47,521 bases of DNA from Nemertoderma westbladi (Eukaryota > Animalia > Xenacoelomorpha), in assembly GCA_032718475.1 (NCBI GenBank), contig JAUCBJ010008479.1, forward strand, positions 1 to 47,521, in the 5' to 3' direction. This document shows, one piece after another, positions 1,372 to 40,100 of the stretch. The position numbers and the translations under genes were made by a program. Below the pieces are notes generated by a model that did no database searches, was not told the DNA's origin, and saw nothing but the letters and a program-made list of their open reading frames with translations. The first letter of the stretch is position 1. Every line of letters begins with the position of its first letter.

Positions 1372-1450
1372 ACAGATTCGTGTAGATTCGTCGGACCGCA
1401 TATTACCTAATAAAGTAATAAACTTACATAACATGTTTGTAAAAGCTTTT

Positions 1451-1580
1451 GTGGACATAACAAGCCATTTTTATCCGCAATATACCGTGTAGGTGTTTTA
1501 GCGGACATAACAATCCATTTTTACCCGCTATGTCTGCATGTGTGCTTTAGCGGACATAACAAGCCATTTTCTCCGCAATG
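1451..1580 (+). repeat. ~50-bp tandem repeat (2.6 copies) at the start of U3; also present in the 3' LTR
   Basis: G(C/T)GGACATAACAA(G/T)CCATTTT at 1451, 1501 and 1550, with homologous intervening sequence. Confidence 0.85.
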
Positions 1581-1671
1581 CGCTTAATACTCTAAAGGCC
1601 GGAACTCAGATGACGACATCTACCAGCTGATTTGCTGACATGGAACTTTCCCTTGTTCTTTGTTCGGCTCA

Positions 1672-1743
1672 GCCAATCAGAGCGATTTTAATTTTATGTG
1701 GAAAAGGAGCCTATGTAAACCGAGCAAGTCTGTGTATGTCAGT
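1672..1743 (+). promoter_or_regulatory. Candidate LTR Pol II promoter (CCAAT box, TATA-like box, Inr)
   Basis: GCCAATCAG at ~1672, TATGTAAA at 1712-1719 and TCAGT initiator at 1739-1743 (canonical ~29-nt spacing). AATAAA at 2227 and 2515. Confidence 0.45.
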
Positions 1744-2606
1744 AGTAGTGTTTATCTTTCTAAGCCCAGAACACCGGCTTAGGATTCTTCTGTACTTCTG
1801 TGGAAGTTTCAGACTTTGGCCAGAACATTGGATGGCTTTGATTAAAGAAACGTAAAACTATTACTGGCCATACTACCCCACGGCCATACTCAATGCACTA
1901 CGATTTGCATAAGTAACATATACTGATTGTTCACCGCATTATTTTACTGTTTGTTATAATTGTTATATATGGATGGATATGTTATTGTATTTGGAGAATA
2001 ACGATAAATAATCATAAACCCCAATCTTCTTGATTACTGAAGGTAAGAGGGACCAGTTACCTGTAGCAACGGCGACTTACATTATAGTGGTTTTTATGTG
2101 AATTAAATGCTATTTCATAATCCCTACATGTGTCAGTTGCTATCCTCCTTATGCATGATCAAATTCAGTGACGGTCGGCAGATCAGTGTGAAGTGGTGTT
2201 AAGTCATGTGCAGTAGTGTGACTGTTAATAAAGCATCTCCTAAAGAATGCGCCTTTTACGAAACTCAATAGCCATCTAGTTGTGATTAGTATAAGTCATA
2301 ACTCTGTTTTTATACTTAAAGCGCCTCGTCCTAAAGGAACTGTTAATATTTCCCCGAAAGTGAATATATTGTCAGAGATTATATAGTAACGATCAATCGA
2401 ATAATACAGTAGGTCTGCAATGCAATAATAAGTCAAAGCATCCGAATCCAGTCTCCCTTAACAGTGGGTGAATGGTTGCGCATAGACTGGCTTCGGCTAA
2501 TGTTATTTCAGTGTAATAAATAATTTTGTAGGCTAAAGTCGATTTATAAACAAGAAGACACCTAAAATTGGCAGGTTAAACTGCTAAAGGTCTAAAAGCG
2601 CAAACA

Positions 2607-2619
2607 GTAATAGTTTTAC
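2607..2619 (+). other. Non-tRNA primer-binding position, complementary to an LTR-internal motif
   Basis: GTAATAGTTTTAC immediately follows the LTR (no TGG). It is the exact reverse complement of GTAAAACTATTAC at 1852-1864 and 16399-16411. Confidence 0.7.
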
Positions 2620-4394
2620 TAGTTTCTTTATTGCACCGTAGGCAATAAAGTCAAAGGTACCGGTCGAACGGTAAGCTGTAGGCGTAACTGCCCAACTGCC
2701 CGAACCGGTACTTACAGGTACAACAGTATTATTAGATTTTGATAATTATATACCAGTAGGTCTTGATATTTAATCAGGGACGGCCGCCCTGGTTTTTTAT
2801 TGGGATTTTACTTATTTCTGTCAGTTTTATTTATCAGTAAGTGTAATATTGAGCAGAAGGAGTGTAAGCCTGCTCAGATTGTACAGATAATATGTAGGCT
2901 GGATTGTTGTCTAGCTGTTGTTAGGTCTGAAGAGATTGCAGTGTGTGTAGAGTGTAGGTCCGATAAAGTACTAGTTAGGAAAGTGGGGGCATCCAGTGTT
3001 GTAAGGTGAATCCGCCCCGAAAGAATAAGTCGTACTACTCGGTTAGAACGCATACTAACTAACCATTTCGGAGTCTGCATATACTGTAGTTTATTTGGGC
3101 TTGACAGTAGTCTGCCAGCATTTGGTTTGAATTTTGTTTGTATAGTCTGCACGGGTAGCGTAATATTTATCATTCAGAGTTTATGCAAGTATTCGCAACC
3201 TTCAAATACCCCAAGTTTATTCCTACAGTAATTGTGCTTGTTATACATACTGTTATAGTTAAATTAACCCCGGTACTACATCAGGGCTGCTTGGCGTAGG
3301 TAAAGACTGGTGATTTTATGCTCTAGTCACTCCAGCAGATGCCGTGGTTCTTTTAGCTGTTCAAGTATATTTAACTGCTGGTTATTTGTTGTATAAGTAT
3401 TTGTACCTAATCTAGGGTTTAGTGTACAGTACTTTCCGAAGGTAATTTAGTTTGTAGGCAGTATATTTGTGTTGTAAAGTGGTTAATAGGCACGTTAGCT
3501 CTGGTTGGCTGCGGTAATTAACTTCTAGGTAAGGACACTCCAGGTACATAACGTAGTACTTATAGTGCTGTAGAGCAAAAAGACTATAAGTCGTCAGACG
3601 GTGGTATTTTCTTATCTGGACAACGCAATTTATTTACTACTGCTTAATTATTTTCAAATACCGTAGTATCCTGTCCATTTGTAATAACCAGAAATTCTAA
3701 CTCCCTGTTAGACTGGTTTGTAGACTTCCTGTAAAATTACCCTAAAATTTGTACCTGTAATTTGTTATTGTTTATTTAGAGATTGTAATCTCACCCTATA
3801 TGTAAGTAATTAGTAGTAATAAGTAACTTAGTAAAGTAGAATTATTTGTTTTAGTGTCCAACAGGTAGCACTCCACTGAGAGCGTTTAGCTTCTGTGTAG
3901 TGACCCTTACCAGAAATAATAACATTTATTTCAAACATTATCAAAACCCATTATACGGGTATATATAAATATATTATAAATCAACTCAAACAGATTTATA
4001 AAATAGTAGGCCTGTCATACATCAATTAGGTCTTAATATCAGTTGGACTACTGCTTAATAACAGTAATAAAGTAAAGGAAAGTAACTCTAAAATTCAGAA
4101 ATTCAGTTATTCTAAAATAATTGACATTGCCGTTATTTATAGTAGGCTTATTATATTTATTTATATAAATTTATGCTGAAATTATATACCGGTATTCTGT
4201 AATTAATTCTAGTCTATAATAATACTTATATATACTATAAGTGTATACCGGTATCCTAATATATTATACATATATATCGCGTTACATTGAGTAACAATAT
4301 CGGTAATTAATTATTAGGCTTACAGTTGATACTGAATTACTAGATCTGCTTTAACTGTTGATATAATAGTAGGCATTCAACTGTATAATCAAAC

Positions 4395-4961
4395 ATGGCT
4401 GACACAAAGCAAACTCTGTCAGATAGTCTCCTAGAAACAACAGTCTGCAACTCAGACAGGAGTGTAGAACATCTTAGACCGAAGTTCAAGTCCCCTCCTA
4501 CTGTAAGAAAGGTCATCCCTCCAGTAGTAGTATCAGACCCTAGGCTGGTAAAGCACCGTAGGTCTATCATAGGCACTCGAGCTCAAGTCAAGCGGGACCA
4601 AGAGGCAGCTGTTAAACAGCATCAACATCCGAACCGAGAACTTATTTCTCAGCGGCCCGATAGCTCCAGTAGTTCAGATACTGTAGAGTTGACACCAGAG
4701 ATCGGAGCAAAGATGGCAGAAGCGGTTTATTCGGATCCCCTTCTCATTCTTCCTGAAGCCGTACTCACTAGGGTATTGATCATGGTGGAGGAACATCAAA
4801 TCGATTGGGCGAGAAGTAGGCGATCGACCAAGGACAGTTATGCGGGATACACAATGGAGGGACTGAAGTCTATTGTCGAGACGCAATGGAACTTCCCCGG
4901 CCCGGACTCTCGTTTAACTTATCGGAAGCTGCCTGGGAGGACTTATACCGGATGGGAGTAG
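4395..4961 (+). CDS. 188-aa ORF at the head of the element 1 coding region (probably frameshifted gag N-terminus, or a separate ORF0)
   Basis: ATG-initiated after a 1.8-kb leader; overlaps the next ORF in another frame; no recognisable motif. Confidence 0.45.
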   Translation: MADTKQTLSDSLLETTVCNSDRSVEHLRPKFKSPPTVRKVIPPVVVSDPRLVKHRRSIIGTRAQVKRDQEAAVKQHQHPNRELISQRPDSSSSSDTVELTPEIGAKMAEAVYSDPLLILPEAVLTRVLIMVEEHQIDWARSRRSTKDSYAGYTMEGLKSIVETQWNFPGPDSRLTYRKLPGRTYTGWE

Positions 4962-7900
4962 TAAAGGATACTCGAGATCCCGCTGTGTGGAAGAGGTCGG
5001 CAGCAGGATATGTCCAGGGATTCTTCAGCTCTTTGGAGCGATTAGAGGAACACCTGTTTCAACAACCTCACGGACCTCAAGAGCAGGGAGAGCTGCTTTA
5101 TCAAGTTCGAGAACGAATTCTACGGATCAGACTAATCCTTTCAGCCTTTGAGGAAGCCTCGAAGAGAAGCCAAGACACGTCGTTGCAAGTCGCCATAAAG
5201 ACTTGGTTCCAACGGGTGAGTCTTAAAGTCCAAGGAACAGCCTCATGGAAAATTCAACTAACCGAACGCTCGACCCAAGGAGAATCAACAGACGCCGCCT
5301 TTTCTCAAGTGGAAAGCAAAGTTACGACAGAAAAACCTCAGAAGAAGGACGCTATTGACATCTATCTGTTGGACTATCAGCGATTTATAGGAGACAAAGA
5401 GTTAAGGAGACGGTTAGCTGGACTTCACCCTAAAAGTGGGGGAGCCAAATTTGTGTTAGACTCATTAGATGCGGAAATTTTAGCCTCGGATCGAGCTAAA
5501 TTTGAGGAAAAAATCCGCATTGTTAGAGTCCAAGAAGAGCAGCTAAAGAAAAAACAAATAGAAGACAGAAAAGCAGCAACAGCGGCAGCGGCAGAAGTGA
5601 AAAGAAAAGCTGCAGTGGCAGAGGCAGAAAGAAAAGCGGCAGCAGCAGAGGTGAAAAGAAAAGCTGCAGTGGCAGAGGCAGAAAGAAAAGCGACAGCGGC
5701 AGAGGCAGAAAGAAAAGTGGCAATGGCAGAGGCAGAAAGAAAAGCGGCAGCGGCAGAAGCGGAAATAACTGCGGCAGTGGCAGAGGCAGAATGAAAAGCG
5801 GCAGCGGCAGAAGCGGAAAGAACTGCGGCAGAGGCAGTGGTCAAAGCGTTCTGCTTTGACCACTGCCTCTGCCGCAGTTCTTTCCGGAAGGCATCTGAAG
5901 AGACAACCCAACTCGAGTTGGAAAATCTTCAAGAGAAGCAAGACTACTTAAATAAACAGATAACAGCTAGTCAGATGCAGATGATAAGTCGATCTACTCC
6001 CAAGAGACAGGGATTTACATCATCTGATGAAGGTGATACAACAGATCCTTAAGGCGGAGGAAATAGATCTCGTTCCAACAGACGTAGAAGAACACCCCAC
6101 CGTCAGAAATTGCCTAATTTGCCCCCAGTTGTGAGAAGGCAACTAGCTAGTGTAGACTTAGGTAGTACAGAATCCACAGACCAAGTTATTAGAGTAGAAA
6201 GACTCCCTACTATAGTAGATGAGCCTGAAATAATTGGGCCTGTTCTCGAAGCCACCTCTTCTGTGATAGAGACCCCTGTACATCCAGAACCTAACTCTAA
6301 ATTCCCTTTGCACGGTACTAAACTACCTGTGCCCAGTAGAATAGTCCCTAAATTCCCCCCGGTCCTGGACGCCGAGCAAGACATCAACAATTTGTCGCCC
6401 GTCGTCCCTCGTCTGCCCGCTACTATGTTGGCGGCTCCCGCTTCGGCAGTAGAGTAGGTGGATGAGGGACGGCGGGAGATTTGTCTCCTGCTCGGGCAGC
6501 TGAGGGAATACCGGGTATGTTCCTCCCAGCAGGTCCGGGAGTTGGAAGGGACTGTTCAGCAGTTAAAGGGAACAGTAAGAGAGGGTAGGTTAGAGTTGCA
6601 AGAAGTGCAGCAGAGTATCGCGTTAGAACGCAATAAATTGGTAAATATACAAAGGGGTATACCACCACCCCCTGTAACAATGTGTCAACCTGTTAGGTCT
6701 GAAGTATTTCATGCGCAAGGTGTGGAGCCTACACGCATCTATACTGCTAGTGAAGTAGAAACTCCTATAGTAAACCCTATTAAGGATAATTATAAACCTG
6801 TTGATAATTATATTCCATATAGACCTGATCATAATCCGAGAAATTTATATACCGATAACTTGATATTAAATAATACGATGGCCCAAGAAAGTTTTATGCG
6901 TCAAATGGCTAGAACTGAAGCCCGTCAAGCGGTAAAGGTGGGAGAGATCGTCAAGTTCAATGGAGATGAGATGAAATGGTTACCTTTTAATGAATATTAT
7001 AAAGATAACATACAGAGTTCCGTACTATCCCACAGAGAGAAACTAAGATTCCTCATCGAGTGCTTGGAAGGACCTCCCAAGTTAATGGCGTTAAAGTTTA
7101 TTGGACATCCAGATGGATTAAGACAAGTTTGGGATACACTAAACATCAGGTATGGTAATAGGACTAACATAGCTAGGTATTTGTATGCGAAATTAGTAGC
7201 GCCCCGAACGTTTCTTAGCAGCGGGATTATAGAATTTTCCGATGAGATCCAGGAGATCTGTAGACAGCTAGATTGGTTAGGTAAGTCTCATGAATATCAG
7301 AGTTCCATGGTTATTGGAGCCGTAGCATATACTTTGTCAAAGGGTGGAGTAGGTACTCGTTGGGACAAGAGAGTGCTCTATATGATGGACCAGCAACAAA
7401 GAGACCCTACCATGGCTGATCTCATGTCATTCTTAAATGGAGAGGTAAGATTACAGCTCCTAAAACAGTCCCGATAGAAGTACCGGAAAATAAGGTAATT
7501 GAAAAACCGGTTTCTAGAAGAAAGGTAACACCAGTTTGTTATACAGATGACGGCAAAAGCCAAACCTCTCAAGAGGAGAATAGCGGGAAAGACACCGAAA
7601 GATCTTACTATGTCAACAAAGCACCTAAAGACGTAAGTAAATTTAAGTCTCGAACCAGTGACAGGAGAGAACAGGTTACAAAAACTCCTCCTACGTCTCC
7701 TAAGATAATTCATGGAAGAAAGCCCGAGGAAAGAACCAGTGTGCACAACACCACACAAGGTAAAGTAAGTAACATCAAGCCAAAATGTGCATTGTGCGAC
7801 GGGCCCCATCGTTTAAGTGTATGTGATGAATTCTTGAAGAAATCCCTAAAGGATAGACGTGATGTCATGAGGGATAAGCGGTTGTGTTATAATTGTCTCA

Positions 7901-7990
7901 GACAAGGACACCAACGACGAACCTGTTACTCGGACATGAGGTGCGCTAAGTGCGGCGCGAAACATCATATCTTGCTGCACACAGAATTTG
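4886..7990 (+). pseudogene. gag: Bel/Pao gag with long coiled-coil N-terminus; in-frame stops and a frameshift
   Basis: ORFs at 4886, 5837, 6110 and 6458 are all in one frame, separated by single stops. AEAERKAAAA repeats; core KFNGD..W..F / KLRFLIECLEG / WDTLNIRYGN; triple knuckle CALCDGPHRLSVC, CYNCLRQGHQRRTC, CAKCGAKHHILLH. Confidence 0.85.
5814..5886. repeat. Perfect 34-bp inverted repeat with a 5-nt loop inside gag
   Basis: CGGAAAGAACTGCGGCAGAGGCAGTGGTCAAAGC (5814-5847), loop GTTCT, exact reverse complement at 5853-5886. Confidence 0.95.
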
Positions 7991-10900
7991 AAAGAACCAG
8001 CCCGAGTCAGGTAAGTGAGTCTGAACTACATGTCCAATTCAGTGATGTGAACGACACTGACCACAGCTCTGAGATGGAAGGATTTTACACGGACGAATTC
8101 TCCGACGAAAACGAATCCTGTTATATGATAAACACCGCGGTGTATCGAGCGCTTACGTATGAGACTGAAACCGATAAAAAAACGCACCCAGCTATTCCTG
8201 ACCGACAACCATCTTGGAAAGCGCCAACTTCCAGCGTCGGAATCCGGGAATTCCTGGTAGTTCAGCTGAGAGTCCATGGATTAGGTAGGAGTTTTATAGT
8301 CAACGCCCTCCTGGACTCCGGCAGCACAGGAATATTCATCGACAAAGAACTAGCCAAAGACATCTTTGCTGGACAACCCAAGTTCCGAACTAAGTTGAAC
8401 CTTTCAGGAATTATGCAGGTTTGGAAATCTACAGTAGCTACGGACTACTATGTAGGAGCGGTGTCCACTCCCCAGGACAAACTAGGAGAACATAGCAAAA
8501 GGTCAGTAAAAATGGTGGCGATAAAGAACTTTGCTACCAGCCAAGTAGAACCTTACAACTGGGATGAAGACAATTTTACCCAGCAGCATGATATCCCTAA
8601 ATTCAACACCGACTACCCAGGGGTGCAAATACTGATCAGTCAAAATGCGCATGAGGCGCTTGAGACATTAGAAAAACGGCCTGCTCGACCGCAACCATTG
8701 CAAACATATGCGGGGAGAACAAGAGTAGGTTGGTACTTCACTGGACCTTCCCGTAGAACACTCATGGAAAGATTACCTACCGAACAAATACATCAGGTGA
8801 GTGAGTGGGAAGAAGAAATCAGTAAGGGAGAGATCACACCTGAGGGAACACCATACTCCTCAGATAACAACGATATTACTCAATTATTTGACGAGGAAAA
8901 TACAATCGACCTCCTCACCGAGAGTGAATTTTGGAAAAACCAAATGCAACTGTCCCATCTTGTTAATCATGGCGGACAACTTGACTACAACGACGAGCTA
9001 AATGAGGTGATAGATCGACACATCGCTAAGATTCGTGATGAACACGCAGTACGATTCTTTACTCAAGAAGCTGTAGAGCCTAATTCCTATGACAAAGCAC
9101 TATCGGTCGAGGAGGAAAGAGCCAAGCAGATCCAAGAAACGACTACACGTTTTCTTAAAGATCAAGGTAGGTATGAGATTGGTCTGCCATTCCGATGGCG
9201 AGAACCAAACTTTATCAATAACAGACCGTTAGCTGAGAAGAGAATCGCGCAACTACATCGGCGTCTTACAGCCAATGCTTCAGCTAAAGAGATGTATAAG
9301 ACCCAGCTAAAGAAATTTATCAATAAGGGATACGCGGAGCGAGTACCAGAAGAAACACCGTAACTGAGAACATATTATCTAACACATCATTACGTTCCCA
9401 AACCCGGTAAACCCAACGAAGTCCGGGTAGTATTCGACGGCTCCGCCCTTTACATGGGCCAATCCCTTAATTCTGAGTTGTTGCCGGGACCCAACTTACT
9501 ACAATCCTTGTTGGGAATACTCTTAAGACTACGGCAATATTCTATCGCTTTCGCCTCAGATATAGAAGGTATGTTCTTACAAGTCAAGGCACTGGATAGG
9601 GATCGAGACAGCCTACGATTTCTGTGGTGGCCTGAAGGAGACCTCAACCAAAAACCCGTGGAGTACTGGATGACCATCCAGGCTTTTGGAATCATCTCGA
9701 GCCCCTCGAACGCTTGTTCAGTAGTGTGTACCACTGCTGATGACAACCGAGACGCCTTATCTAAAGCGGTTATCGACAACATCAAACCGGATATATTCAT
9801 GGACGATAATTTAAAGTCCCTCCCATCGGTGGAAGAAGCCATTGATGTAGCCAAGGGAACGGTAGAGTGTTTGAAGCGTGGTGGATTTCGACTAACCAAA
9901 TTCACTAGTAACTCCCGTGAGTTTCTGGAATCAATCCCGGAAGAAGATCGAGGTGTTAAAGAGCTGAACCTTATCAAGGACGATCTTCCGGAAACCAAGA
10001 CGCTTGGTTTGAAATGGGACACGGAGAGAGATATCCTGTTTTTCCAGCTAAAACAGCAAGATAATCCAGTTCGAACTAAACGTATTTGTCTAAGTATCCT
10101 GAGCACTTATTTCGATCCATTGGGATTTATTAGCCCCATTACATTGGTTGCTCGGAGTTTAGTACAACAAATGTGGCTTGAAAACCACTCGTGGGACAAT
10201 CCACTTAAGGGAGAACTACTAAAGAAGTGGATGAAATGGGAAGATTCTCTACCATCCATCGAGAACTTTACCATTTCCCGTTCATATTTTGGTCACGTTC
10301 TCCCCACGTATTCCTATCAACTCCATGTGTTTGGAGACGCCAGCGATATGGGATTAGGTATAGTAGCCTACCTGAGAGTTGAAACTCCGGATGGAATTAA
10401 AGTTGCCTTGGTTACCTCTAAGGCCTTGATAAACAACAAACTACGAGTTCCTCGAGCGGAGTTAAAGGCGGCTCTATACGCTACAGCCATCGGCCGGAAT
10501 GTAACAGAACAGATCGACTATCCACTAGAGAAAACTGTCTATTGGACTGATGCTTCACTCGTTTTGGAGTATATAACCAATGAAGTCTGTCAGTTCAGCA
10601 TCTTTGTTACCAACAGAGTAGCCATTATACTTAGTCGCACTAATGTAGATAAATGGAGACATTGCCCTGGGACGATTAATCCAGCCGACATCGCCTCCAG
10701 AGGAGCGACTCCTCAAGAACTGATAGATACTCCGGACTGGTTAGGTGGACCCGACTTCCTAAGTAAAGAAGAAGATGAATGGCCTCCTCATCTTACCACG
10801 GCTGAGATTAGACAAGCCAAGGGAGCGGAGAAAGTCAAACCTAAAACCCGGACGAGTAAATCGAAGTTATTTAAACCCGTGATAGATCTGTGTGTACTAC

Positions 10901-12618
10901 ACATTTCCAGGGACGACGCTGTGGATCTAAACTCCCCCGCCACAAATAAATCTGTTGTGGAGATTAGAGAGAGAGACTGGTAATCTGGAACACCAGATGT
11001 CTCGCAGGGACTCTCACCTCTCCTGCAGAGAGCGATAAATCACTATAGCTCCTGGAATTGGCTTTGTAAGGCCGTCGGATATTTGAAGCGATGCTTCCAT
11101 CATCACTACTCCAGGATGAAGATCGCTAGTGATACTCCTCCACTGACATCTGCGCAGGTCCATGCTATTAAAGATCTTTCCAAATACAAGGTATCAGAGC
11201 GGTTTCTGACGGAGAAGATCAGTTACCAGGAGCATGAAGAAACCAATAAGCAGATACTGAGACTCCTGCAATGCTATGAAGATTCCGATAAGTATTTCCT
11301 GTTGTTGAGAAATCCACAGATGCGCTTAAGGGATCGTTTCTCTAGCACAATGATAGATGGATTAATACGCGTTGGAGGGAGACTAACTAATGCTCCATTA
11401 TCCTTTGACACTAAGTTTCCCATACTCATTAGAAATCTTGAAATACAAATCAAGATGATTGTAGATGTTCACAGTAGGCTTTACCATGCTGGTAGAGAAC
11501 GAGTTCTTAGCGAAATTCGAACTCGCTTTTATTTTCATAAACCCCGTAGAGCTCTGAACAAAGTTCTTAGGAACTGTATACCCTGTAGGAAAGCATTTAG
11601 TAGGTTTAACACAGTGAGAGGCAGAATTACCTAGGGAACGCGTAAGCTTCTATGAACCCCCCTTTACTAATACCGGTGTGGATTTATTTGGCCCTATTGA
11701 AGTATATCGTGCTAGGATAGGACTATAGTCAAGCGATGGTGTGTCATCTTTGTCTGTATGACTTGTAGAGCGATCCATCTAGATATGGTGAACGATCTAT
11801 CTACCAACAGCTTCATACTGAGTTTACGCCGACAGATCGCTCGCTTTGGAACTAGCAACACGATGAGATGTGATAAGGGAACGAACTTCATTGGCGCCAA
11901 TAATGAGATCAAGGCTTACGTTAAAGATTGGAACCAAAGACAGGTGGACAATCAGCTAAGGGTAACAGCATCTAGCTGGACCTTCAACGCCGCCGACGCC
12001 CCTTGGTGGGGAGGAATTTGGGAGAGATTAATAAGAAGCGTGAAGACCGCATTTTATTTTATAGTGCCGTGCCGCGCGTATCTCACCGACAAACTTTTGC
12101 GGATGTTAATGGAAGAAATCGCAGCCTATCTTAACGAGAGACCGCTTATGCCAGTCTCATCGAGTCCCGACTCCCTGGAAGCGCTAACACCCGCGCACTT
12201 CCTACTGAAGAAACCTGTAGCCATGCTACCACGATCGGAAATCACGGACGGAGACGAATACTGCCGACAAACTTGGCAACTTATGCAGTTATTATCCCAT
12301 TGTTTCGCTGACCATTTCGAAAAACATTATCTGCCTACGCTACAACTTCGAACCAAGTGGTTTGCGCAGCAAGAAAATGTCAGCGCCGGAGAAATGGTCC
12401 TTATTGTGGGGTCAGATCTTCCACGTAAGCGGTGGCAGAAAGGTCGTATCATCGAGACTCATATCTCCGATGATGGTTTAGTGCGATCGGTAGAACTCAT
12501 CATCATGCGACGTAACTTTAAGAAACCTGGAATTGTATTCGAAATGCAGCAGCTCAATCGCCCAGTTGGTCGTTTATGTTTACTGGAAAGAGACAGAGAA
12601 CTATCCGGAAACTATTGA
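7991..12618 (+). pseudogene. pol: Bel/Pao pol (protease, RT, RNase H, integrase), disrupted
   Basis: PR ALLDSGS; RT RVVFDGS, SDIEGMFLQV, FMDD; RH LHVFGDAS, PRAEL, WTDAS, NPADIASRG; IN H-H-C-C, GVDLFGP (shifted frame), CDKGTNF, GIWERLI. Stops at 9361 and 10981; compensating frameshifts at ~11610-11720. Confidence 0.92.
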
Positions 12619-14456: not shown

Positions 14457-15906
14457 ATGCAAGCGTTTGTTGATAGTTTAATACGCGGCGACGCTAGTCA
14501 ACCCACTACGGAGGACGATGGCCGTTATATAGAACTGCCAATATCAAAGGAACAACTCACGCGTAAATTGGACTATAGAAAATTCACCGCTCGCTATAAG
14601 CATCGTAATGGTACGTATATGGACTTCTTAACTACTGGTCATCCTATCGATTTACACAATACGGATGATGTAGACACCGAAAGGGAAATGGTTCTATTTA
14701 AATATCATACCCAGCGGAGTCGGAACGATAAACTGAGAATCGAACACGAAAAATTATATTCGAAACTGACTCGAAAGAAAGATGTTGAAGAGCCGGATAA
14801 ACGCAGTGACTTCAACGAATATCTGGAATTATTGAGAGAAACATATCTCAATATAGCCAGTCAACAAAATCTCGAAACTCAATATCCTCAAGGTATACAT
14901 CATGACCCTATGATAGAACTCAAACGACTCTATTTCACTATGATGTATCTTACCACCGATCGACCGCCAATTGTTGTACCGGATAGCTTCGAACAGATGG
15001 AGAAATATTGTAAAACTGGAGAAAGATCACCCGCGTTTCCCCTACAGGACGTGCGTCTTTGGTATTATTGCGATGAATGCCCTAGACCCAACCAACAAAC
15101 GGAAAGACATAAACATCCCCGGAGACGTTGCGCTAAACACCGTTTTACTCGCTATACTTACGGGATTTTCGAGCGAATCTTGTTCGACGTATCACCCGCG
15201 CTCGCTCGACTCAAACGATCCTTAAATAACCGATGATCAGAATTCCGGAATACTTGGTCAGACCTCCTCATTCCCTAGTGAGACCTCAAACTCTTGATCC
15301 TAATAGTATAATGAACTGTACTCACTGTTCAAAGATCTAGTGTTACCCTAACAATTAATCGGTGGCACTCCGGTAGTGGGCTCTCTAGATATTTGCCCAT
15401 CCTACCTAGCCGGATTGGGACGCAGACATTTAATATTGCCGTTTAACCCGTATAATCGTCCCGGTTTAACCCTGATACAACCTGTCATCAAGGCGGAGGA
15501 GAGCGTTGTACGAAACGCGTTAGACGCTATTCGGCAAAGGATCGGAAAATGAACTTACTATTGTTTAGAGAAACGTAAATTGCAGCAGCAAGTTCCAGCA
15601 GTAAACGAATTGGCTTTACCTCAGTTCGATTGGGAAATCCAGAATCTATAAGAAGATTTCGAACTTGGACGACCCTATTCTCTGCGAGAGTTTTTGGACG
15701 AACGCATCCAACGACAAGCGGAGGAAAATCAGCTCGAGGAGAAGCATATCAAAATGGACGAGACACTGACCGTAACCCTAAACCTTTTGATGCAACCTTC
15801 ACCCAGGAGTTATAGACCTCCTAGTAAATTGGCTCACCCCAAAGAGAAAAGGACTCTTGCTAGCCTCAAAAAACTTCGTAAACGCCGTTCACGTAAGAAG
15901 GACTAG
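14457..15906 (+). pseudogene. Extra ORF (ORF3) of element 1, frameshifted, with a ~2.7-kb internal deletion
   Basis: Co-linear with the N-terminal ~385 aa and the last ~50 aa of the 1345-aa ORF at 43434-47471. Junction MDE/TDRNP at ~15762. Confidence 0.9.
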
Positions 15907-15976
15907 TAGTTTAGAGTATTTTTATATTTTAGAAACTGTGATTTTATATATTTTATTGACTCAAATCCCATTTTCT

Positions 15977-15984
15977 GGGAGCGG
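15977..15984 (+). other. Polypurine tract of element 1
   Basis: GGGAGCGG abuts the TG of the 3' LTR; identical in element 3 (43356-43363, minus strand). Confidence 0.75.
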
Positions 15985-17151
15985 TGTAAAAGCTTTTGCG
16001 GACATAACAAGCCATTTTTATCCGCAATATACCGTGTAGGTGTTTTAGCGGACATAACAAGCCATTTTTACCCGCTATGTCTGCATGTGTGCTTTACCGG
16101 ACATAACAAGCCATTTTCTCCGCAATGCGCTTAATACTCTAAAGGCCGGAACTCAGATGACGACATCTACCAGCTGATTTGCTGACGTGGAACTTTCCCT
16201 TGTTCTTTGTTCGGCTCAGCCAATCAGAGCGATTTTCATTTTATGTGGAAAATGAGCCTATGTAAACCGAGCAAGTCTGTGTATGTCAGTAGTAGTGTTT
16301 ATCTTTCTAAGCCCAGAACACCGGCTTAGGATTCTTCTGTACTTCTGTGGAAGTTTCAGACTTTGGCCAGAACATTGGACGGCTTTGATTATTGAAACGT
16401 AAAACTATTACAGGTCATACTACCCCACGGCCATACTCAATGCACTACGATTTGCATAAGTAACATATGCTGATTGTTCACCGCATTATTTTACTGTTTG
16501 TTATAATTGTTATATATGGATGGATATGTTATTGTATTTGGAGAATAACAATAAATAATCATAAACCCCAATCTTCTTGATTACTGAAGGTAAGAGGGAC
16601 CAGTTACCTGTAGCAACTGCGACTTACATTATAGTGGTTTTTATGTGAATTAAATGCTATTTCATAATCCCTACATGTGTCAGTTGCTATCCTCCTTATG
16701 CATGATCAAATTCAGTGATGGTCGGCAGATCAGTGTGAAGTGGTGTGAAGTCGTGTGCAGTAGTGTGACTGTTAATAAAGCATCTCCTAAAGGCGCCTTT
16801 TACGAAACTCAATAGCCATCTAGTTGTGATTAGTATAAGTCATAACTCTGTTTTTATACTTAAAGCGCCTCGTCCTAAAGGAACTGTTAATATTTCCCCG
16901 AAAGTAAATATATTGTCAGAGATTATATAGTAACGATCAATCGAATAATACAGTAGGTCTGCAACGCAATAATAAGTCAAAGCATCCGAATCCAGTCTCC
17001 CTTAACAGTGGGTGAATGGTCGCGCATAGACTGGCTTTGGCTAATGTTATTTCAGTGTAATAAATAATTGTCGTAGGCTAAAGTCGATTTATAAACCAGA
17101 AGACACCTAAAATTGGCAGGTTAAACTGCTAAAGGTCTAAAAGCGCGAACA
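15985..17151 (+). repeat. 3' LTR of element 1 (1167 bp)
   Basis: Direct repeat of 1438-2606, followed by TSD ATGTT. Confidence 0.95.
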
Positions 17152-17290
17152 ATGTTACCCTATAAAGTAATTAACCTTACATATTTCTCCTACCTAATAA
17201 AGTAATAAACTTACATAACATATTACCGTATAAAGTAATTAACCTTACATATTATCTAATAAAGTAATTAACCTAACATATTATCTAATT
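17152..17290 (+). repeat. ~30-bp AT-rich minisatellite split by element 1 (first part 1399-1437)
   Basis: CATATTACCTAATAAAGTAAT(A/T)AAC units on both sides of the insertion. Confidence 0.7.
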
Positions 17291-17342
17291 GAGTAGTGCG
17301 GTCATCGTAGGGTAAGCTTACTACTTCAGTACTTAATATGTT

Positions 17343-20990: not shown

Positions 20991-21012
20991 TTCTATGGAA
21001 CATAAGTTTGTT

Positions 21013-21274: not shown

Positions 21275-21372
21275 TATTAATTACATACAGTATACTATAT
21301 GCAGGTGCAGTATTATAGATAACAGTTTAGTAAGTGAGAACGTGCCCTTGTCACCGCGTTAAGCATAATATA

Positions 21373-32600: not shown

Positions 32601-32891
32601 TACGTGGCGCTTTCGGTGCCCACAACCCCTCTACTCTCTTTCTACGTGGCGCTTTCGGTGCCCAGATTAGATTAGATTAGTTTATTGACATAATTAAGTT
32701 CCACAAGCGACTGATGAAAGAAAGTGACAGAAAAATACAAACAGGTAACATAACAATATATGTAAGGAAGACACAACATTGATATAAACAAATACAGTAC
32801 ATAAGCAGTAAGCAGTCATAAAAACAATAACAAGAACAATGTGACAAACTATAGCATGCAGCAGACCACTAGGGAACGAGAACAATATGTG

Positions 32892-33166
32892 TGTCGTGCA
32901 ATATATTATTTTATCCACTTAGGAGATCATACCTCACACTTACATTAATTGATTTACTGTGCAAACAATATGATACAAGTTACAGTACCACTTTATGTGC
33001 CAACATGTGTTCGACTCATACTATAATTAATTTGATATATGAAGTATTGAGGTGACGGGATTTGCGTAGATTAATTAACATTTATATTATCAAGAATATA
33101 GTAAAGTTTTACATTAAAAGATTATTTTCCATTACAACCAAGTAATTGGTTGATACATGTACGACA
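32892..33166 (+). repeat. 5' LTR of element 2
   Basis: TGTCGT...ACGACA. Confidence 0.97.
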
Positions 33167-33176
33167 TGGCGCCCGA
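33167..33176 (+). other. Primer-binding site, tRNA-Lys(UUU)-like
   Basis: TGGCGCCCGA matches the first 10 nt of the canonical Lys3 PBS. Confidence 0.75.
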
Positions 33177-33266
33177 TAAAAATTTATAATTGTAATTAAA
33201 TTGAGTAATTTATTACATTTGAGTAAGTTCACTGGTATTATTGAAACGGCATCATCATCATTCATC

Positions 33267-36200
33267 ATGGCAATGTCGGAAGAAAAGGAATTGCGTCAAC
33301 TACGTGGATCAAGGAAGGGCATTCGGTCGGCTACCACAATCTCCATCGACTCCATAGAGGACGACATTGGCACTCTCAACATTGAAAGTCGAACAAGTAA
33401 AATAGCGACACTCGAAAACTACAGAGAAAGACCAAACATTATTAACGAAAAGATTTGGTCACTGATGGAAGAGGACATTGTAGAAACTGACACTGAAGGT
33501 GCAGTGAAGTATGAGGTTAGACTATCTGACACTATCACTAAACTCAAACTCTCAATTTCCGGTGCTAATTATGCAGATTATCAGGGTACTGTAGTACAAA
33601 ATCAGTCTGAGATTAATGAAAATTTTGTACCGGTACAGCCAAGTAACGTTCCTACATTTCATAGTAGTAGTATAGTAGCACGTTCTGTCTTGCCAAAATT
33701 ACACCCACCAAAATTTAATGGTAACCCTCTCAATTATTGTGGCTGGAGGGATGCATTCCAATCAGCAATTCATGATTCTGGGCTTCCAGATGTGCTAAAA
33801 TTCCAACACTTAATACAAAGTTTAGAGGGACCAGCCAAATCAGTCGTAGCAGGACTTCCGGTAACAGGGGATAACTACAGTATAGCTATGGAATTATTAA
33901 AAGAGCAGTTTGGGCAGGAGAGTCGAATAATAAATTGTCACATTGAGCAGTTACGTAACATTTCACTTAGGTTAGGCAAAGCGAGCACCCTCCGACAAGT
34001 TTACGATACCTGCACATCAAATATAAGAGCATTGGAAGCATTGGGGGTTACAACAGTTGAGTACCAAAGAATAGTTATTCCAGATATTTTAAGGGTAATA
34101 TCAGTTGATATAACAAAACGGTTGTTAAGATTCACAGAAAACAAGGTTGATAATTTAGAGTGGGTAATGGCACAGCTGAAAATCCATTTAGCCACGGAAG
34201 ATGCTGTAGCGGAATTATCTCAAAGCAATAAAGCAGTTTATGGAAGTATTAATCAATCATATGCAATGCCAAGCGCATCAGCACTGGTTGTGTCGAATTC
34301 AGCAACTAATAAATATACAAATAACAACTACAGAGCAAACAATATGCAGCGTTTTGATACCCGAAACTCACGCCAGTCAGAGCAAACGGTATCAAACTTC
34401 TCCAGACCAGCATCAGCAGCAATGCCCCACTGCGTGTATTGCAAGCAAGGACACTACTCATCAACGTGTCACATAATAGCAGATGTTGAACAAAGGAGGA
34501 ATTTTTTAACTACAAACAATCGTTGTTATAAGTGCCTCGACAACTCTCATCAAATACGACATTGCAGAAGAAAGAAACCGTGTTACATATGTCACGCTCA
34601 CGGTCACCACACATCGATTTGTAAAAAAAACACCAAGCCAAATCCAACACATATCCAAGCACCAGTAGTTATTACAAACACTGAATCAACAGAACCAATT
34701 TCAGGATTACAAATGGTCATGCCACATTATGACGAAACAGATGGTGACGTTCTTTTACAAACAGCAGTTGTACGCTGTTTGCTTGCATCAAATCAGGAGT
34801 GCATCATTAACATATTATTTGATCCAGGCGCACAAATTACATTTATAACAAAACGGTTCGCGGATAAACATTATTTACCGTTGTGCGGTAAACAAGGTAG
34901 TGAGGTAGGAGGTTTTGGAGGTGTCAGCACAGAGCCAAATAATTACGATGTCACTCAGCTGACTTTAATTTTACGTGATGGTTCTACGAAGAATATTAAA
35001 GCATTAATAACACACAATATTTGCGCACCACTAAAGGCAGGGATTGGAAATAAAGCATGGAAAGAAACATGTACATTAGACTTACAAGCTTCGGAGTTGG
35101 CTGATCCTTCAATAAGTATTCCAAATAACGGAGGTGATTTCATTATCGATTTGTTGGTGGGAGCCGATCAGTATTGGAACTTGGTTTCCGGGTCAGTGTT
35201 GAGAGCAACTAACTCTGATCTTGTGGCACTGGATAGCGGAGTGGGTTGGTTGCTTTCGGGAAAAATTTCTTACAATACACATTTAAGTCATTCTAACCCA
35301 CACAACATTGGATCTTGTATGTCTATCATCACTAAGATTACAAACACAGATTCAGATACATTAGATGAAAATGAAAATGACGTAATTTTAAAATTACTGC
35401 AAGCATTCTGGACATTAGAAAGTATAGGTATAACTTCACCCAATGACTTTGATGACCCTAAGAATGTTTTAAAGGAAATAGTATTCATTAATGGAATGTA
35501 TTCCGTTTCATTACCATGGAAGTTAGCACCTAGCAGTTTGCAGGACCACTATTGTCTGTGTCTTAAACAACTAGCATCATTAATACACAGATTACAGAAG
35601 ATGGGCATTTTACAGAGATATCATGACGTCATAACGGATCATCTTTCCAAAGGCTATATCGAACCAGTAGATCATAGGGAACCAATAAGTAAGGATCAAG
35701 TAGCACATTACATTCCACATCATGGGGTGTTGAGAGAAACTCGATTAAGCACAAAATTAAGAGTTGTATTTAATGCATCAGCTAGAACATTTCCTACCGA
35801 CCTATCATTGAATGATTGTTTAGAATCTGGCTCGCATTTATTTCCAAATTTGTGTCATTCATTGCTACACTTCAGGCTTCACAGCATAGGAATCACTGCC
35901 GATATTGAACAAGCTTTCCTACGCTGCCAGATAAATAAAAATGATCAAAACTGTTTACGTTTTTTGTGGATTAAAAGCTGCTCAGGCATTGTTATTGAAG
36001 AAGCAAACATACAGGCATATCGATACACAAGGGCACTTTTTGGGCTCACTTGTTCACCTCATATTTTGGGAGGGATTGTAAAGCACCATTTGGACATTGA
36101 ATCAGAAAGAATGGATCTACAACAGAGTGAAAGGGATGCTATCGAGAAGTTGCGTGAGATTCATGTGGACGATTTATGTTCAGGAGCCAATTCGGTAGAA

Positions 36201-39200
36201 GAAGGTAGATTGTTGCAAACAACATGCAAATCTATTTTAGGACGGGCGGGATTTAAAATTAGACGGTGGACCACAAATAGTTGTGAGTTACAAAGAATGT
36301 TTAATGCAGTTGAAGAAAGGGCAAGCAACTGTGATAATCGCACAGCAGAAAGTATAATTGAGGAAGATCAATCATTTGCAAAAACGAATCTCAGCTTATC
36401 ACCACCTCAAACGAATATTGTAAGACGCGTGCTTGGTCAATGTTGGGATTTGTCAACAGATACAATTGGCTATGACGTTTTGCCAGTATATAACTTCATT
36501 GCAACTCTCCCTTTAACAAAAAAAAGTCATTCTTCAACTTTCAGCAAGGTTGTACGACCCTCTTGGTTTACTTTCACCATTTACGGCTCAATTTAAGGTC
36601 ATGTTTCAAGAACTTTGTAAGACTAAAGTAAGTTTAGAGTGGAATAGCCCATTACCAGATCATATGGTTAAGGTATTCAAGAAATGGTTAGAAGATATAC
36701 CTCATATAAATAATATAACTGTGCCACGATATCTATTTGACACTACAAGAGAGATTGCTACGTTTGAAATACACGGATTCTCAGACGCTAGCAAATATAT
36801 TTATGCAGGTGTGGCATATATTCGCACAACTTACACAGATAACACATCAAGTGTGAAACTATTAGCATCGAAAGCAAAGGTTAACCCAGTACCAAAAAGG
36901 GGAAACTCTTTGGGTACACCTCGACTCGAACTCTTAGGAGCACTCATTATGATAAGATTAGTTACATTTGTCAAACAAGGTCTAAAATTACCATGCAAAG
37001 TTTATTTGTGGTCAGATGCAGTAGATGTAATTTACTGGATAAAAGCGACTAGTTCAAACTGCAAACAGTGGGTTCAATCCAGGGTTACGGAGATACGTTC
37101 ATTAACTCAACAATTGAAAGGCCAGTGGCGGTTTTGTCCAGGAATACAAAATCCGGCCGACTTACCCACAAGAGGGATGACAGTAGAACAACTCATAAAG
37201 GCAACTACTTGGTACAATGGCCCAAAGTTCTTAAGCGCAGAAGAGGAAACTTGGCCGAACAAATTAGTTATAGATCCAATAGAGGTATCACAAGATTGTC
37301 TAAAGGAATTCAAATCATCCATTGTGGGGCGAGCCACGAAGTTGGCGGAGCCTTAGCGAATTGACACTGTTAGGGGGTGGGTCAATTTATGCAAATAGTT
37401 GTCGTTGTCGTCGTCGTCGTCGTCGTCGTCGTTACGATTTTGACATGCTAATAACTTTGTCGGATTTAAAGCTGCCAAGTTGAAAATTTGTAGGTATCAA
37501 TATGAGCAAAAGTTGAGATTTTTGAGAGACTTTCAGACACCATCAGTGCAATGGTCTCCCGCTAGAGGGCCACATGTCTAAACATCAATTCTTTGCTTTT
37601 AATCCGTTTAAGCTGAAACTTGGCAGATATGTATTAGACCATTAGCTGTGACTTTCAAAGGAGGCGAATCCATCTGCAGTTCTCCAGTCTGCCGCTAGAG
37701 GGCCAACGTGACTATTTGCATAAATTGACCTACCCCCTAACAGTGTCAATTCGCTAAGGCTCTGCCAACTTCGTGCTGCGCGAAGTCCCCACTTCGTGTA
37801 GCTGTTACGACCATTAAATCACCCGATGAAGTTATTAGCAATTGTTTCCCATACTCCAATTATAGCAATCATACTGTAATTATACGAAAGCTTGCGTGGG
37901 TGCTCAGGTTTGTGAGCAACATTCGAGCAAGCATACACAATCATCCGCTTTCCCTAAGTGTAGTTCCTTCGGCAGAAGAAATGACTCAAGCGGAAATTAC
38001 ACTACTTCGAATGATACAATTAGAATATTATAAACCAGAATTAGAATACTTGCAACAACCGAAACGTGGTCGATGTCCAAACATTATTAAGCAATTAAAC
38101 TTATTTATTGACCACCAAGGTGTATTACGCTCCAAAGGTAGAGTACAGACCCCATACTTAACATGGCAGGCTCAAAATCCAATACTACTCCCACCGAAAG
38201 ATCATTTCACTAAGCTAGTAATTTTAAATGCTCATCATAAAGTTATGCATTCACGTGTAAGAGACACGCTGGTACAAATACGGGAAAGATATTGGATCCC
38301 CCGAGCGCGTCAAGTCATTAAGAATGTTTTACGAAACTGTGTAACCTGTAAAAGAATACAAGGCAGACCTTATACAAAACAGGAAACAAGTCCTTTGCCC
38401 ATTGAACGCATGACTATCGACATAAGTCCCTTTACTAATGTCGGGATAGATTTTGCAGGACCAGTGATGGCAGTTAGATCTCTTTCTGATCCGATTGGTT
38501 CAACATTTAAGGTTTATATATGTCTGTTCACTTGTGCTGTAGTAAGAGCAGTGCACTTGGAACTCGTGACCAGCTTAAGTGTTGCAGCATTTATCAGTGC
38601 ATTCCCGCGATTTATAGCAAGACGTGGAGTTCCAGCATTAATTTTTAGTGACAATGCTTCTACATTCAAACGATCAGCAGCAGATATCAAACTCTATAAC
38701 GAATTTCTTGACAGTGACATAGTACGCAAGGAGTTTGGAGAACTCTTAACAAAATGGGTATTTAATGTAGAACGCTACCCGGCGGCATTTGGCTTTATAG
38801 AGCGTTTGGTCGGTGTGACCAAAGGAGTTCTTCGCAAGACGTTAGGGAGAGCAGTTTTAACTGAAGAGGAAATTCGTACTGTACTTACATCATGTGAGGC
38901 AGTTGTTAATAGCAGACCACTAACCTTTATTTATAGCGACAGCAAAGAAAATTACCAGATATTGACACCCAGCCATTTCTTGGTAGGAAAAAGACTTTGT
39001 GCACTTCCATCCCCTACCGTAAAATCAATTAATCTAGATTTGTCTCGAACGAATCTTATAAATCGACTTAAATATCAAGAAAGAGCGTCCAATTTATATT
39101 GGAAATTATTTCGTGAAGAATACGTCGCAGAACTTCGGCAACACCATCGTTCCAAAAATCACAATAACAGAAACACAATCATCCCTAAGGTTGGAGATAT

Positions 39201-39546
39201 GTGTTTACTTCTTGATGAAAAACTTCCAAGATGTCTCTGGAAGTTGTGTATGGTTAACAAGTTGATAGTAAGTCGTGATGGAGTTATTCGCGCAATAACA
39301 GTAAATGTTGCTGAAAGAGGTCGGGAAGCAAGACTTCTTACTCGTTCCATACGTCATGTTATTCCATTGGAAATAACAGCGGACAAACCAACTGACACGA
39401 CTATTAAACCAGATAAAGATAATCTCAAGCCAGTTCCAGTAGACAATAAGATAACAAACGATGAGACAGCGATCATAACTGACAATTCTCGTCTTTCACG
39501 CTTGGCTAAGAGAAAAATGAAACCAGGATTTTACAATACAAAATAA
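33267..39546 (+). pseudogene. gag-pol: Single gag-pol ORF of element 2, broken by one extra A (36518-36525) and a 471-bp insertion
   Basis: PKFNGNP..F, KFQHLIQSLEG, three knuckles, ILFDPGA, KLRVVFNAS, ADIEQAF, HVDD, HGFSDAS, PRLELL, NPADLPTRG, GIDFAGP, SDNASTF, FIERLV. Confidence 0.92.
37324..37792. mobile_element. Helentron-associated (HINE/DINE-1-like) MITE inserted in pol
   Basis: GTGGGG...CCCCAC ends flanked by TT; ~63-bp subterminal inverted repeats; (GTC)n microsatellite; duplicated CCGCTAGAGGGCCA core. Removing 37324-37794 restores the pol frame. Confidence 0.8.
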
Positions 39547-39825
39547 TTACATACAGTATTGAACAAACTCGAGTTGGATTATGTAACTTTATTATATATT
39601 TAGTGAATATTTGTGTGTTCTACTTAGTATTTTACAAGTAAGATTATTGTTTATATAGCGGAAACGTATGTAAGTTTATGTAGTACTGTAAATGAAAATT
39701 ACTTTCAATTTACAATTATGTACTGTATAATTTATTTATTGTGTTGAGGAATAAATCATATCAGTACAGTAGTGTTATGTAATTATTTTATTGATTTAGA
39801 TTTTGCATGATATGCAAGGGAGGAG

Positions 39826-40100
39826 TGTCGTGCAATATATTATTTTATCCACTTAGGAGATCATACCTCACACTTACATTAATTGATTTACTGTGCAAAC
39901 AATATGATACAAGTTACAGTACCACTTTATGTGCCAACATGTGTTCGACTCATACTATAATTAATTTGATATATGAAGTATTGAGGTGACGGGATTTGGG
40001 TAGATTAATTAACATTTATATTATCAAGAATATAGTAAAGTTTTACATTAAAAGATTATTTTCCATTACAACCAAGTAATTGGTTGATACATGTACGACA
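39826..40100 (+). repeat. 3' LTR of element 2
   Basis: Direct repeat of 32892-33166. Confidence 0.97.

What the first reader, a model, noticed from the sequence alone, without database searches (positions are those of the whole stretch)
14457..16411. Possible coupled system: the exonuclease trims the element's RNA to make the self-primer
The PBS-complementary motif lies ~110 nt downstream of the best TATA/Inr candidate (TSS ~1741) and upstream of the LTR AATAAA signals. It is therefore not at the RNA 5' end as in Tf1, and would be present near both ends of the genomic RNA. In the 3' LTR the pairing stops exactly at the LTR boundary (TATTAC followed by AG, a mismatch). Inference: the RNA 3' end, or a cleaved fragment, anneals to the PBS and a single-strand 3'-5' exonuclease (ORF3) trims it back to the duplex, giving a correctly placed primer. 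This would explain why both oddities occur in one family. Speculative.
Basis: inference. Interest (0 to 1): 0.82.

Follow-up and report, generated by a model that had tools for sequence, protein, structure and literature searches.

The report
Self-priming retrotransposon with captured exonuclease
This jumping gene lacks the usual tRNA landing site and has one that matches its own terminal repeat, so it likely starts copying itself with its own RNA; its family also carries a predicted RNA-trimming enzyme, but related elements show the same self-match without that enzyme, so the two traits are probably not a required pair.

Summary
Both oddities are real; the coupling is not supported as a requirement. 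The 14.5-kb-spaced LTRs (1438-2606, 15985-17151) flank a Bel/Pao element whose PBS (2607-2619) has no TGG and is 13/13 complementary to LTR 1852-1864 (0 of 5000 shuffles); a bulged helix extends the match to 24 bp. The ORF3 inside the finding's coordinates is broken and has lost the nuclease region; a predicted DEDDy-like 3'-5' exonuclease plus zinc knuckles survives only in a second copy (43434-47519, minus strand). Element 1 groups (99/97) with six complete Bel/Pao relatives that also lack a tRNA PBS; five show an 11-12 nt self-match (four across an LTR splice junction, directly before AATAAA), the sixth 10/11, and none has ORF3. The 3' LTR 'stop at the boundary' is one of 24 LTR-LTR mismatches and carries little weight. 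No RNA ends could be mapped. Best reading: a self-primed Bel/Pao clade, one branch of which later captured an exonuclease; a role of ORF3 in primer maturation stays open (about 0.2).

The parts
1433..1437 (+). Left target-site duplication ATGTT (right copy 17152-17156)
1438..2606 (+). 5' LTR of element 1 (TG...CA, 1169 bp; 97.6% to the 3' LTR)
1712..1743 (+).
1843..1866 (+). PBS-complementary segment: core 1852-1864 (13/13), 1865-1866 pair with the LTR's last CA, 1843-1851 pair with 2622-2630 after a 2-nt bulge
2043..2511 (+). Candidate intron in the LTR (strong donor at 2042|2043, acceptor at 2511|2512), with matching GT/AG in the second family's LTR (42701, 42228); splicing not shown
2515..2520 (+). 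AATAAA 3 nt after the candidate acceptor, 86 nt before the LTR end; best poly(A) signal by analogy with relatives
2607..2619 (+). Non-tRNA PBS, directly at the LTR end, no TGG; most variable part of the leader across family copies
2620..2730 (+). Structured leader (9-bp hairpin and a longer stem; z = -2.8)
4395..12618 (+). Bel/Pao gag-pol with several stops and frameshifts: DUF1759, PR, RT (FMDD at 9796), RNase H (Peptidase_A17 model), integrase, DUF5641
14457..15906 (+). ORF3 remnant of element 1: N-terminal part and last ~45 codons; broken, nuclease and zinc-knuckle region deleted at about 15763/15764
15977..15984 (+). Polypurine tract abutting the 3' LTR
15985..17151 (+). 3' LTR of element 1; motif copy at 16399-16411
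43434..47519 (-). Open ORF3 of element 2 (at least 1361 aa, runs off the window): N-terminal region 85% identical to element 1, predicted DEDDy-like exonuclease, three Cys/His clusters, basic tail, no transmembrane stretch
44895..45539 (-). Predicted exonuclease core: D662 (45536), E664 (45530), D763 (45233), Y871 (44909), E875 (44897), all matched in homolog P0001
42131..43355 (-). 3' LTR of element 2 (1225 bp; about 72% to LTR1 in its 3' half) with an altered motif at 42912-42899 and a second partial copy at 42939-42929
32890..40100 (+). Element 3, internal control: Bel/Pao with 277-bp LTRs, TGG-type PBS, no self-match above 7 nt, no ORF3

Best explanation
Element 1 belongs to a Bel/Pao branch that has no tRNA primer site and likely primes reverse transcription with a segment of its own LTR-derived RNA, and its predicted exonuclease gene is probably a later, branch-specific capture that self-priming does not require. 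Shown: the self-complementary PBS, its absence from TGG-type elements, the clade, and the absence of ORF3 in six complete relatives. Inferred mechanism: an internal R segment (from a short or 3'-terminal LTR transcript, or from the folded-back 5' end) anneals to the PBS in a bulged helix; the RNA 3' of the helix is removed by activities every member has (the element's own RNase H as in Tf1, or host 3' nucleases), leaving a 3'-OH exactly at the LTR boundary. Because the PBS would be recopied from this primer, PBS and motif drift together. ORF3 (exonuclease plus nucleocapsid-like knuckles, expressed probably from a spliced RNA) most likely does a general RNA 3'-end or anti-silencing job.
For: 13/13 match, 0 of 5000 shuffles; helix of 24 bp, -30.5 kcal/mol, and the second family's LTR independently pairs with the same leader further upstream; pair probability 0.57-0.65 from a 1741 start, 0.87-1.0 from 1852. 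PBS positions vary strongly among copies while the hairpin behind them does not (summed depth 5,223 at 2618-2623 against 25,621 at 2642-2647 in X1); the only listed change at 2611 (T>C, 59% of depth in X1, 44% in X3) is the one that fits the second LTR's motif. Tree: element 1 plus 11 loci form a 99/97 branch that holds all six complete non-TGG relatives and none of the five TGG-type rows. Five of those six have an 11-12 nt self-match (four across a GT-AG junction, 0 of 300 controls each; L004 contiguous, 0 of 6230), L002 has 10/11; L003 and L005 differ by two compensated changes. No ORF3 hit in any of the 30 loci; integrase-to-LTR gaps 132-783 nt in four of the six, and 5.2-kb internal regions in the other two. 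ORF3 N-terminal part under purifying selection, dN/dS 0.12 over 219 codons. DEDDy ORF3s were gained at least twice in rotifer Gypsy-type elements and occur in Athena elements (PMC5408684).
Against: No RNA end, splice or primer was observed; only contigs were available. The T2611C change is unlinked to any LTR motif, is a transition, and element 2's own PBS lies outside the window. Element 1 is the longest and earliest branch of the clade (1.33), the root is midpoint only, and no test_one_clade was run. The six relatives come from four assemblies. Element 1 differs from them in a way that could matter: its motif is contiguous and 178 nt upstream of the candidate donor, so far more RNA lies 3' of the helix than in the relatives, and it is the only ORF3 bearer. 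Host tRNAs or tRNA fragments could not be searched (no genome). The exonuclease call rests on language-model features (0.92), one homolog and motifs; Pfam, PDB and both structure predictions gave nothing.
Confidence: 0.6

Rival explanations
1. Facultative coupling: in this one lineage ORF3 trims the RNA 3' of the PBS helix and has taken over a job that host nucleases or RNase H do in relatives, perhaps because the motif moved away from the poly(A) site.
For: In relatives the primer end lies 0-22 nt before AATAAA, which points to a primer cut from a polyadenylated 3' end; in element 1 about 200 nt (spliced) to 670 nt (unspliced) would have to go. ORF3 has putative catalytic residues and nucleocapsid-like knuckles. 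DEDDy enzymes do 3'-end processing of structured RNA (PMC5408684). Element 3 has neither trait.
Against: Six of six complete relatives self-match without ORF3. Copies lacking the nuclease exist, one joint at contig depth 2918 in X4, though trans-complementation could explain that. The 3' LTR mismatch argument does not hold. One ORF3-bearing lineage gives no co-occurrence statistics.
Confidence: 0.2
2. Plain Tf1-like priming: transcription starts at about 1843-1852, the 5' tip folds onto the PBS, RNase H cuts after the helix; ORF3 unrelated.
Against: In junction-type relatives the motif is about 190-200 nt downstream of the conserved TATA and exists only after splicing, so 5'-tip geometry is not the clade's rule.
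Confidence: 0.25
3. ORF3 acts on DNA: if the primer has a long 5' tail, plus-strand strong-stop DNA would be copied past the PBS and carry a 3' flap that a single-strand 3'-5' exonuclease removes before second-strand extension.
For: Follows from the internal position of the motif (inference); DEDDy enzymes can act on single-stranded DNA (PMC5408684).
Against: Relatives with equally internal motifs lack ORF3; no direct data.
Confidence: 0.07
4. The helix is only structural (for example it regulates poly(A) use or packaging) and another RNA primes.
For: The leader can also pair with 2512-2520 over the AATAAA and with its own hairpin partner (read from the sequence); no primer was observed.
Against: The match starts exactly at the LTR boundary where a primer must end, replaces the TGG site in the whole clade, and varies as a re-templated site would.
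Confidence: 0.08

Closest known systems
Tf1/Tf2/Tj1 and the Tf1/sushi group; plant Tcn1 and TAR lineages (PMC7175516, PMC4600332, PMC6317226)
   Same: No tRNA PBS; the PBS is complementary to the element's own LTR; passes the 10-bp criterion used in PMC6317226.
   Different: Bel/Pao, not Gypsy or Copia; helix of up to 24 bp with a bulge; motif apparently internal, and in relatives created by splicing next to the poly(A) signal, whereas Tf1 uses the first 11 nt of the RNA.
Belpaoviridae / Semotivirus (ICTV profile, PMC8742986)
   Same: Domain order and Pfam families, TG..CA LTRs up to 1.2 kb, 5-bp TSD, PPT.
   Different: The profile states priming by host tRNA-Arg or tRNA-Gly at an 18-nt PBS, genomes of 4.2-10 kb and env-like as the only third gene; here no tRNA PBS, 15.7 kb even after a 2.7-kb deletion, and a non-membrane ORF3.
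DEDDy-exonuclease ORF3 of bdelloid Juno/Vesta LTR elements and Athena/Terminons (PMC5408684, PMC6431247)
   Same: Enzymatic ORF3 in the env position, altered acidic motif, Cys-rich region; a role in 3'-end processing was already suggested in general terms.
   Different: Those hosts are Gypsy-type and Penelope-like elements; this ORF3 exceeds 1360 aa with a long unknown N-terminal part; homology to the rotifer proteins was not tested (no sequences on hand).

Membership tests
Belpaoviridae (Bel/Pao) | gag-PR-RT-RH-IN order with Pao-type domains | tested here: met
   DUF1759, Peptidase_A17 (E 9e-37), Integrase_H2C2, DUF5641 in order; 424 homologs at E<=1e-40, best 43%
Belpaoviridae (Bel/Pao) | TG..CA LTRs, TSD, PPT | tested here: met
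Belpaoviridae (Bel/Pao) | PBS complementary to a host tRNA 3' end | tested here: not met
   No TGG at the PBS, none among listed variants; host tRNA fragments could not be searched
Tf1-type self-priming | PBS complementary to the element's own LTR (10 bp or more, 0-5 nt from the LTR end) | tested here: met
   13/13 at offset 0; 0 of 5000 shuffles
Tf1-type self-priming | Complementary segment is the first bases of the RNA | tested here: inconclusive
   No RNA reads; helix extends to 1843; relatives have internal motifs
Tf1-type self-priming | RNase H cleavage makes the primer 3' end | not testable with these tools
   RNase H motifs are present; activity needs an assay
Tf1/sushi group (membership) | Ty3/Gypsy chromovirus pol | tested here: not met
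   Pol is Bel/Pao
DEDDy 3'-5' exonuclease | ExoI D-x-E, ExoII D, ExoIII Y-x3-D | tested here: inconclusive
   D662, E664, D763, Y871, E875 align with P0001; last acid is E; the ExoI segment alone is not significant (436 of 1000 shuffles); motif labels are recalled
DEDDy 3'-5' exonuclease | Profile or fold match | tested here: inconclusive
   Atlas features 0.92 to 3'-5' exonuclease clusters, 10 of 10 named hits in one family or clan; P0001 0.86 to a PF01612+zf-CCHC cluster and PF01612 at E 0.2; no Pfam or PDB hit for the window protein; both models pLDDT about 30
DEDDy 3'-5' exonuclease | Nuclease activity on single-stranded 3' ends | not testable with these tools
   needs an assay
Proposed coupled system (ORF3 + self-primer) | Self-complementary relatives also carry ORF3 | tested here: not met
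   0 of 6 complete non-TGG relatives carry ORF3
Proposed coupled system (ORF3 + self-primer) | ORF3-bearing relatives all have self-complementary PBSs | not testable with these tools
   No ORF3-bearing locus outside the window was retrieved; the contig of P0001 could not be fetched

The most novel reading that the evidence does not exclude
This Bel/Pao clade builds its primer from the polyadenylated 3' end of its own LTR transcript (spliced in most relatives), and the lineage in this window captured a DEDDy exonuclease with nucleocapsid-like knuckles that trims that end back to the PBS helix: a retroelement that encodes its own primer-maturation nuclease.
Probability: 0.2. Interest if true: 0.85.

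Novelty: new variant of a known kind. Interest (0 to 1): 0.58.

Why it matters
Bel/Pao elements are described as tRNA-primed. A supported clade without tRNA sites, with self-matches that are internal and often splice-made, would be a further origin of self-priming with a geometry unlike Tf1, and it makes the question of how the primer 3' end is made directly testable by RNA-end mapping. A DEDDy-like ORF3 in Bel/Pao extends a cargo so far described for rotifer Gypsy-type and Penelope-like elements. The specific claim of an obligate nuclease-primer system, which would have been the most surprising part, fails its own comparative test; only a lineage-specific version remains.

Tried and rejected
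No whole genome is held, so element 2's 5' end and host tRNAs were out of reach. No RNA holder listed with raw reads; one run was guessed to be RNA and is kept as contigs, so TSS, poly(A) site and splicing were not testable; no joint for the candidate intron was among those shown (15 joints not shown). ORF3 homolog searches: none at full length, one representative, none further from P0001. Locus scans that found nothing: ORF3 alignments in viral and metagenome contigs, a 21-nt LTR-end pattern in metagenome and genome contigs, pol alignment in viral contigs; one search gave one weak locus (L001) that was not pursued. PDB and phage searches gave no exonuclease hit. Two structure predictions failed, so no fold search was run. 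No tRNA gene in the window and no Rfam hit in 1400-4500. Rejected: a splice-junction primer in element 1 itself (best junction match 7 nt against 13 contiguous); ATTAAA at 1841 as the poly(A) signal (absent from the 3' LTR and LTR2); AATAAA at 16550 (3' LTR only); strong structure in R-U5 as a block to trimming (z -0.7 to -2.1, weak); the 3' LTR mismatch as a mechanistic feature. Of 20 listed ORF3 differences, 11 were synonymous: too few and too selected to use. PMC1839950 (rotifer Juno/Vesta) is not held, so the PBS type of those DEDDy-bearing elements is unknown to me.

Full report
Anatomy. The window holds three Bel/Pao elements. Element 1 runs from 1438 to 17151 with TG..CA LTRs of 1169 and 1167 bp, 97.6% alike (24 mismatches, 4 gap columns), a 5-bp target duplication and a PPT at the 3' LTR. 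Its gag-pol carries DUF1759, Peptidase_A17, integrase and DUF5641 matches and several stops. Element 2 lies on the minus strand, with its 3' LTR at 43355-42131 and an open ORF3 of at least 1361 codons that runs off the window. Element 3 (32890-40100) has short LTRs, a TGG-type PBS and no third gene.

The PBS match is real. The 13 bases after the 5' LTR have no TGG and are exactly complementary to 1852-1864; in the 5' LTR the match runs on to 15 bp over the LTR's last CA, in the 3' LTR it stops at 13. None of 5000 dinucleotide shuffles reached 13, and of all 13,378 internal start positions only 2607 did. After a 2-nt bulge, 1843-1851 pair with 2622-2630 (9 bp; 5 bp in the 3' LTR; 2 of 1149 LTR 20-mers reach 8 or more), giving -30.5 kcal/mol; element 2's LTR, which is unalignable over most of U3, also pairs with this leader upstream of the core. 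So the pairing segment begins at or before 1843. In folded transcripts the helix has probability 0.57-0.65 from a 1741 start and 0.87-1.0 from 1852. Laying four runs of contigs on 2540-2700 shows that the PBS is the most variable part of the leader, while the hairpin behind it is shared; listed changes include G2607A, T2611C (59% of depth in X1, 44% in X3), T2614A, T2616A and A2618T, and no TGG start was seen. T2611C is the change that fits the motif of element 2's LTR, but contigs are too short to link the two, and calls at 2607 include flanks of 3' LTRs. A tRNA-templated PBS would be expected to stay constant (established knowledge, recalled).

LTRs of one insertion are identical at birth (recalled), so the T/A difference at 1865/16412 is a later change or an RT error. 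The TATA-like hexamer at 1712 and TCAGT at 1739 exist, but have no counterpart in element 2's LTR, whereas a 13-nt element 32-33 nt upstream of a motif copy does. The start site is therefore open; no raw RNA reads were served.

ORF3. Within the finding's coordinates there is no exonuclease: element 1's ORF3 matches residues 1-436 and 1322-1347 of element 2's protein in several frames, and DNA similarity jumps from 46316 to about 43587, a loss of about 2.7 kb. The lost part holds the nuclease-like region. Evidence for that call: Atlas features score 0.92 to 3'-5' exonuclease clusters; the only homolog among 1.84 billion representatives, P0001 (30%, E 1.8e-6), scores 0.86 to a PF01612 plus zinc-knuckle cluster, matches PF01612 at E 0.2 and retroviral nucleocapsids at E 1e-4; D662, E664, D763, Y871 and E875 align with acids and a tyrosine in P0001. 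Against: no Pfam or PDB hit for the window protein and two failed folds. I put the assignment at about 0.85. The shared N-terminal 219 codons give dN/dS 0.12, so ORF3 is a working gene of the family; this figure does not cover the nuclease region. Five joints skip the nuclease region in other copies (the best, 44515-47325, with 112 letters on its short side at contig depth 2918); depths are not copy numbers, and such copies could be helped in trans.

The comparative test. A pol alignment (31 rows) fetched 29 loci from genome contigs; they are animal-type Bel/Pao elements inside bacterial assemblies, presumably host contamination (inference). I examined 20 of the 29 for LTR pairs (nine short or weak loci were left out, two of them checked later). 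Eleven had both LTRs and a readable PBS: five TGG-type (L014, L016, L017, L021, L029) and six without TGG (L002, L003, L004, L005, L010, L018; four assemblies). In a 22-row tree (ten loci left out as short or weak, among them L029) element 1 and eleven loci form a 99/97 branch holding all six non-TGG elements and no TGG-type row; element 1 is its earliest and longest branch, and the root is midpoint only. Prompted by earlier scan notes (leads only), I tested splice junctions. L003, L005 and L010 have an 11-nt and L018 a 12-nt match across a canonical GT-AG junction in the LTR, each reached by 0 of 300 controls; L004 has 11 nt contiguous (0 of 6230); L002 has 10 of 11 across a junction, read from the printed flanks. 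L003 and L005 differ by two compensated changes. The five TGG-type loci and element 3 reach at most 7 nt. None of the 30 loci has a tblastn hit to ORF3 or P0001 at E<=0.01, and there is no room for one: 132-783 nt between integrase and LTR in four of the six, internal regions of 5.2 kb in the other two.

What the relatives add. Their motif ends 0-22 nt before AATAAA in the five that have one and lies about 190-200 nt after the best TATA in L003, L005 and L010. A primer site that exists only in spliced RNA next to the poly(A) signal is most simply read as coming from a polyadenylated 3' end or a short LTR transcript, with the unspliced 5' copy keeping the intron in the progeny (inference). Element 1 has a matching candidate intron (2043-2511, AATAAA at 2515; GT and AG also in element 2's LTR), but its motif is contiguous and 178 nt upstream of the donor. 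It is thus the member with most RNA to remove and the only one with a nuclease, which keeps a narrowed coupling alive at about 0.2.

Comparison with print. Read: PMC8742986 (whole text; tRNA-Arg/Gly priming for Belpaoviridae); passages of PMC5408684, PMC6431247, PMC6338049 (DEDDy ORF3s), PMC6317226, PMC4600332, PMC7175516, PMC11042837 (self-priming in Gypsy and Copia lineages), PMC3601003 (LTR structure), PMC3118150; term look-ups in PMC554778 and PMC12440569 returned nothing. Ten library searches (listings only for the rest) showed no report of self-primed Bel/Pao or of a DEDDy ORF3 in Bel/Pao; subscription journals, Repbase and supplements were not seen and may hold such notes. Earlier scan notes report each trait separately in other genomes and none with both; they are unchecked leads.

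Verdict. Observation partly confirmed; interpretation partly supported. What is there is a self-primed Bel/Pao clade with non-Tf1 geometry, one branch of which carries a captured exonuclease-like ORF3. The rival readings overlap in part (plain Tf1-like priming is a sub-case of 'ORF3 not required'), so their confidences do not sum to one. New variant of a known kind; interest 0.58.

Noticed in passing
L002, L003, L005, L010, L018 (5' LTRs): PBS complementary to an exon-exon junction of an intron inside the LTR, directly before AATAAA; independent support for a splice-made primer in Bel/Pao, arguably more striking than the finding itself.
   Followed up: partly
window 2042/2043 and about 14110, 14179: The strong LTR splice donor could also be joined to acceptor candidates upstream of the ORF3 ATG, giving a subgenomic ORF3 RNA without the PBS.
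   Followed up: no
window 2512-2520 and 2627-2635: The leader hairpin arm could alternatively pair over the AATAAA at 2515 (9 bp with one G-U), a possible switch against early polyadenylation in the 5' LTR.
   Followed up: no
window 1764-1777, 1819-1831, 42968-42956: A 13-14 nt element shared by both LTR families, duplicated in element 1, 32-33 nt upstream of a motif copy.
   Followed up: partly
window 45600-47519 (minus) and 14457-15236: The N-terminal 600+ residues of ORF3 have no known family, include a Cys/His cluster and are under purifying selection.
   Followed up: partly
window 5524-5886: 27-nt tandem repeat in gag (Ala/Glu/Arg-rich coiled-coil) followed by a short inverted duplication.
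   Followed up: no
window 13207-13564: A 125-nt direct repeat (78%) in the 1.8-kb non-coding gap between pol and ORF3.
   Followed up: no
window 26801-28024, 25088-25660, 19316-19861: Stop-free frames of 407, 190 and 181 codons with no Pfam match.
   Followed up: no
window 17337-17972, 28831-29691, 30042-30725: LINE-like RT fragments and a C2H2 zinc-finger array.
   Followed up: no
window 24378-25221, 30969-31389, 40465-40648: Tandem arrays of 68, 20 and 10 nt; pieces of 96-1378 recur inverted at 18926-29582.
   Followed up: no
L002-L029: Complete animal-type Bel/Pao retrotransposons sit inside bacterial genome records, several with identical LTRs: likely host contamination of these assemblies.
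   Followed up: partly
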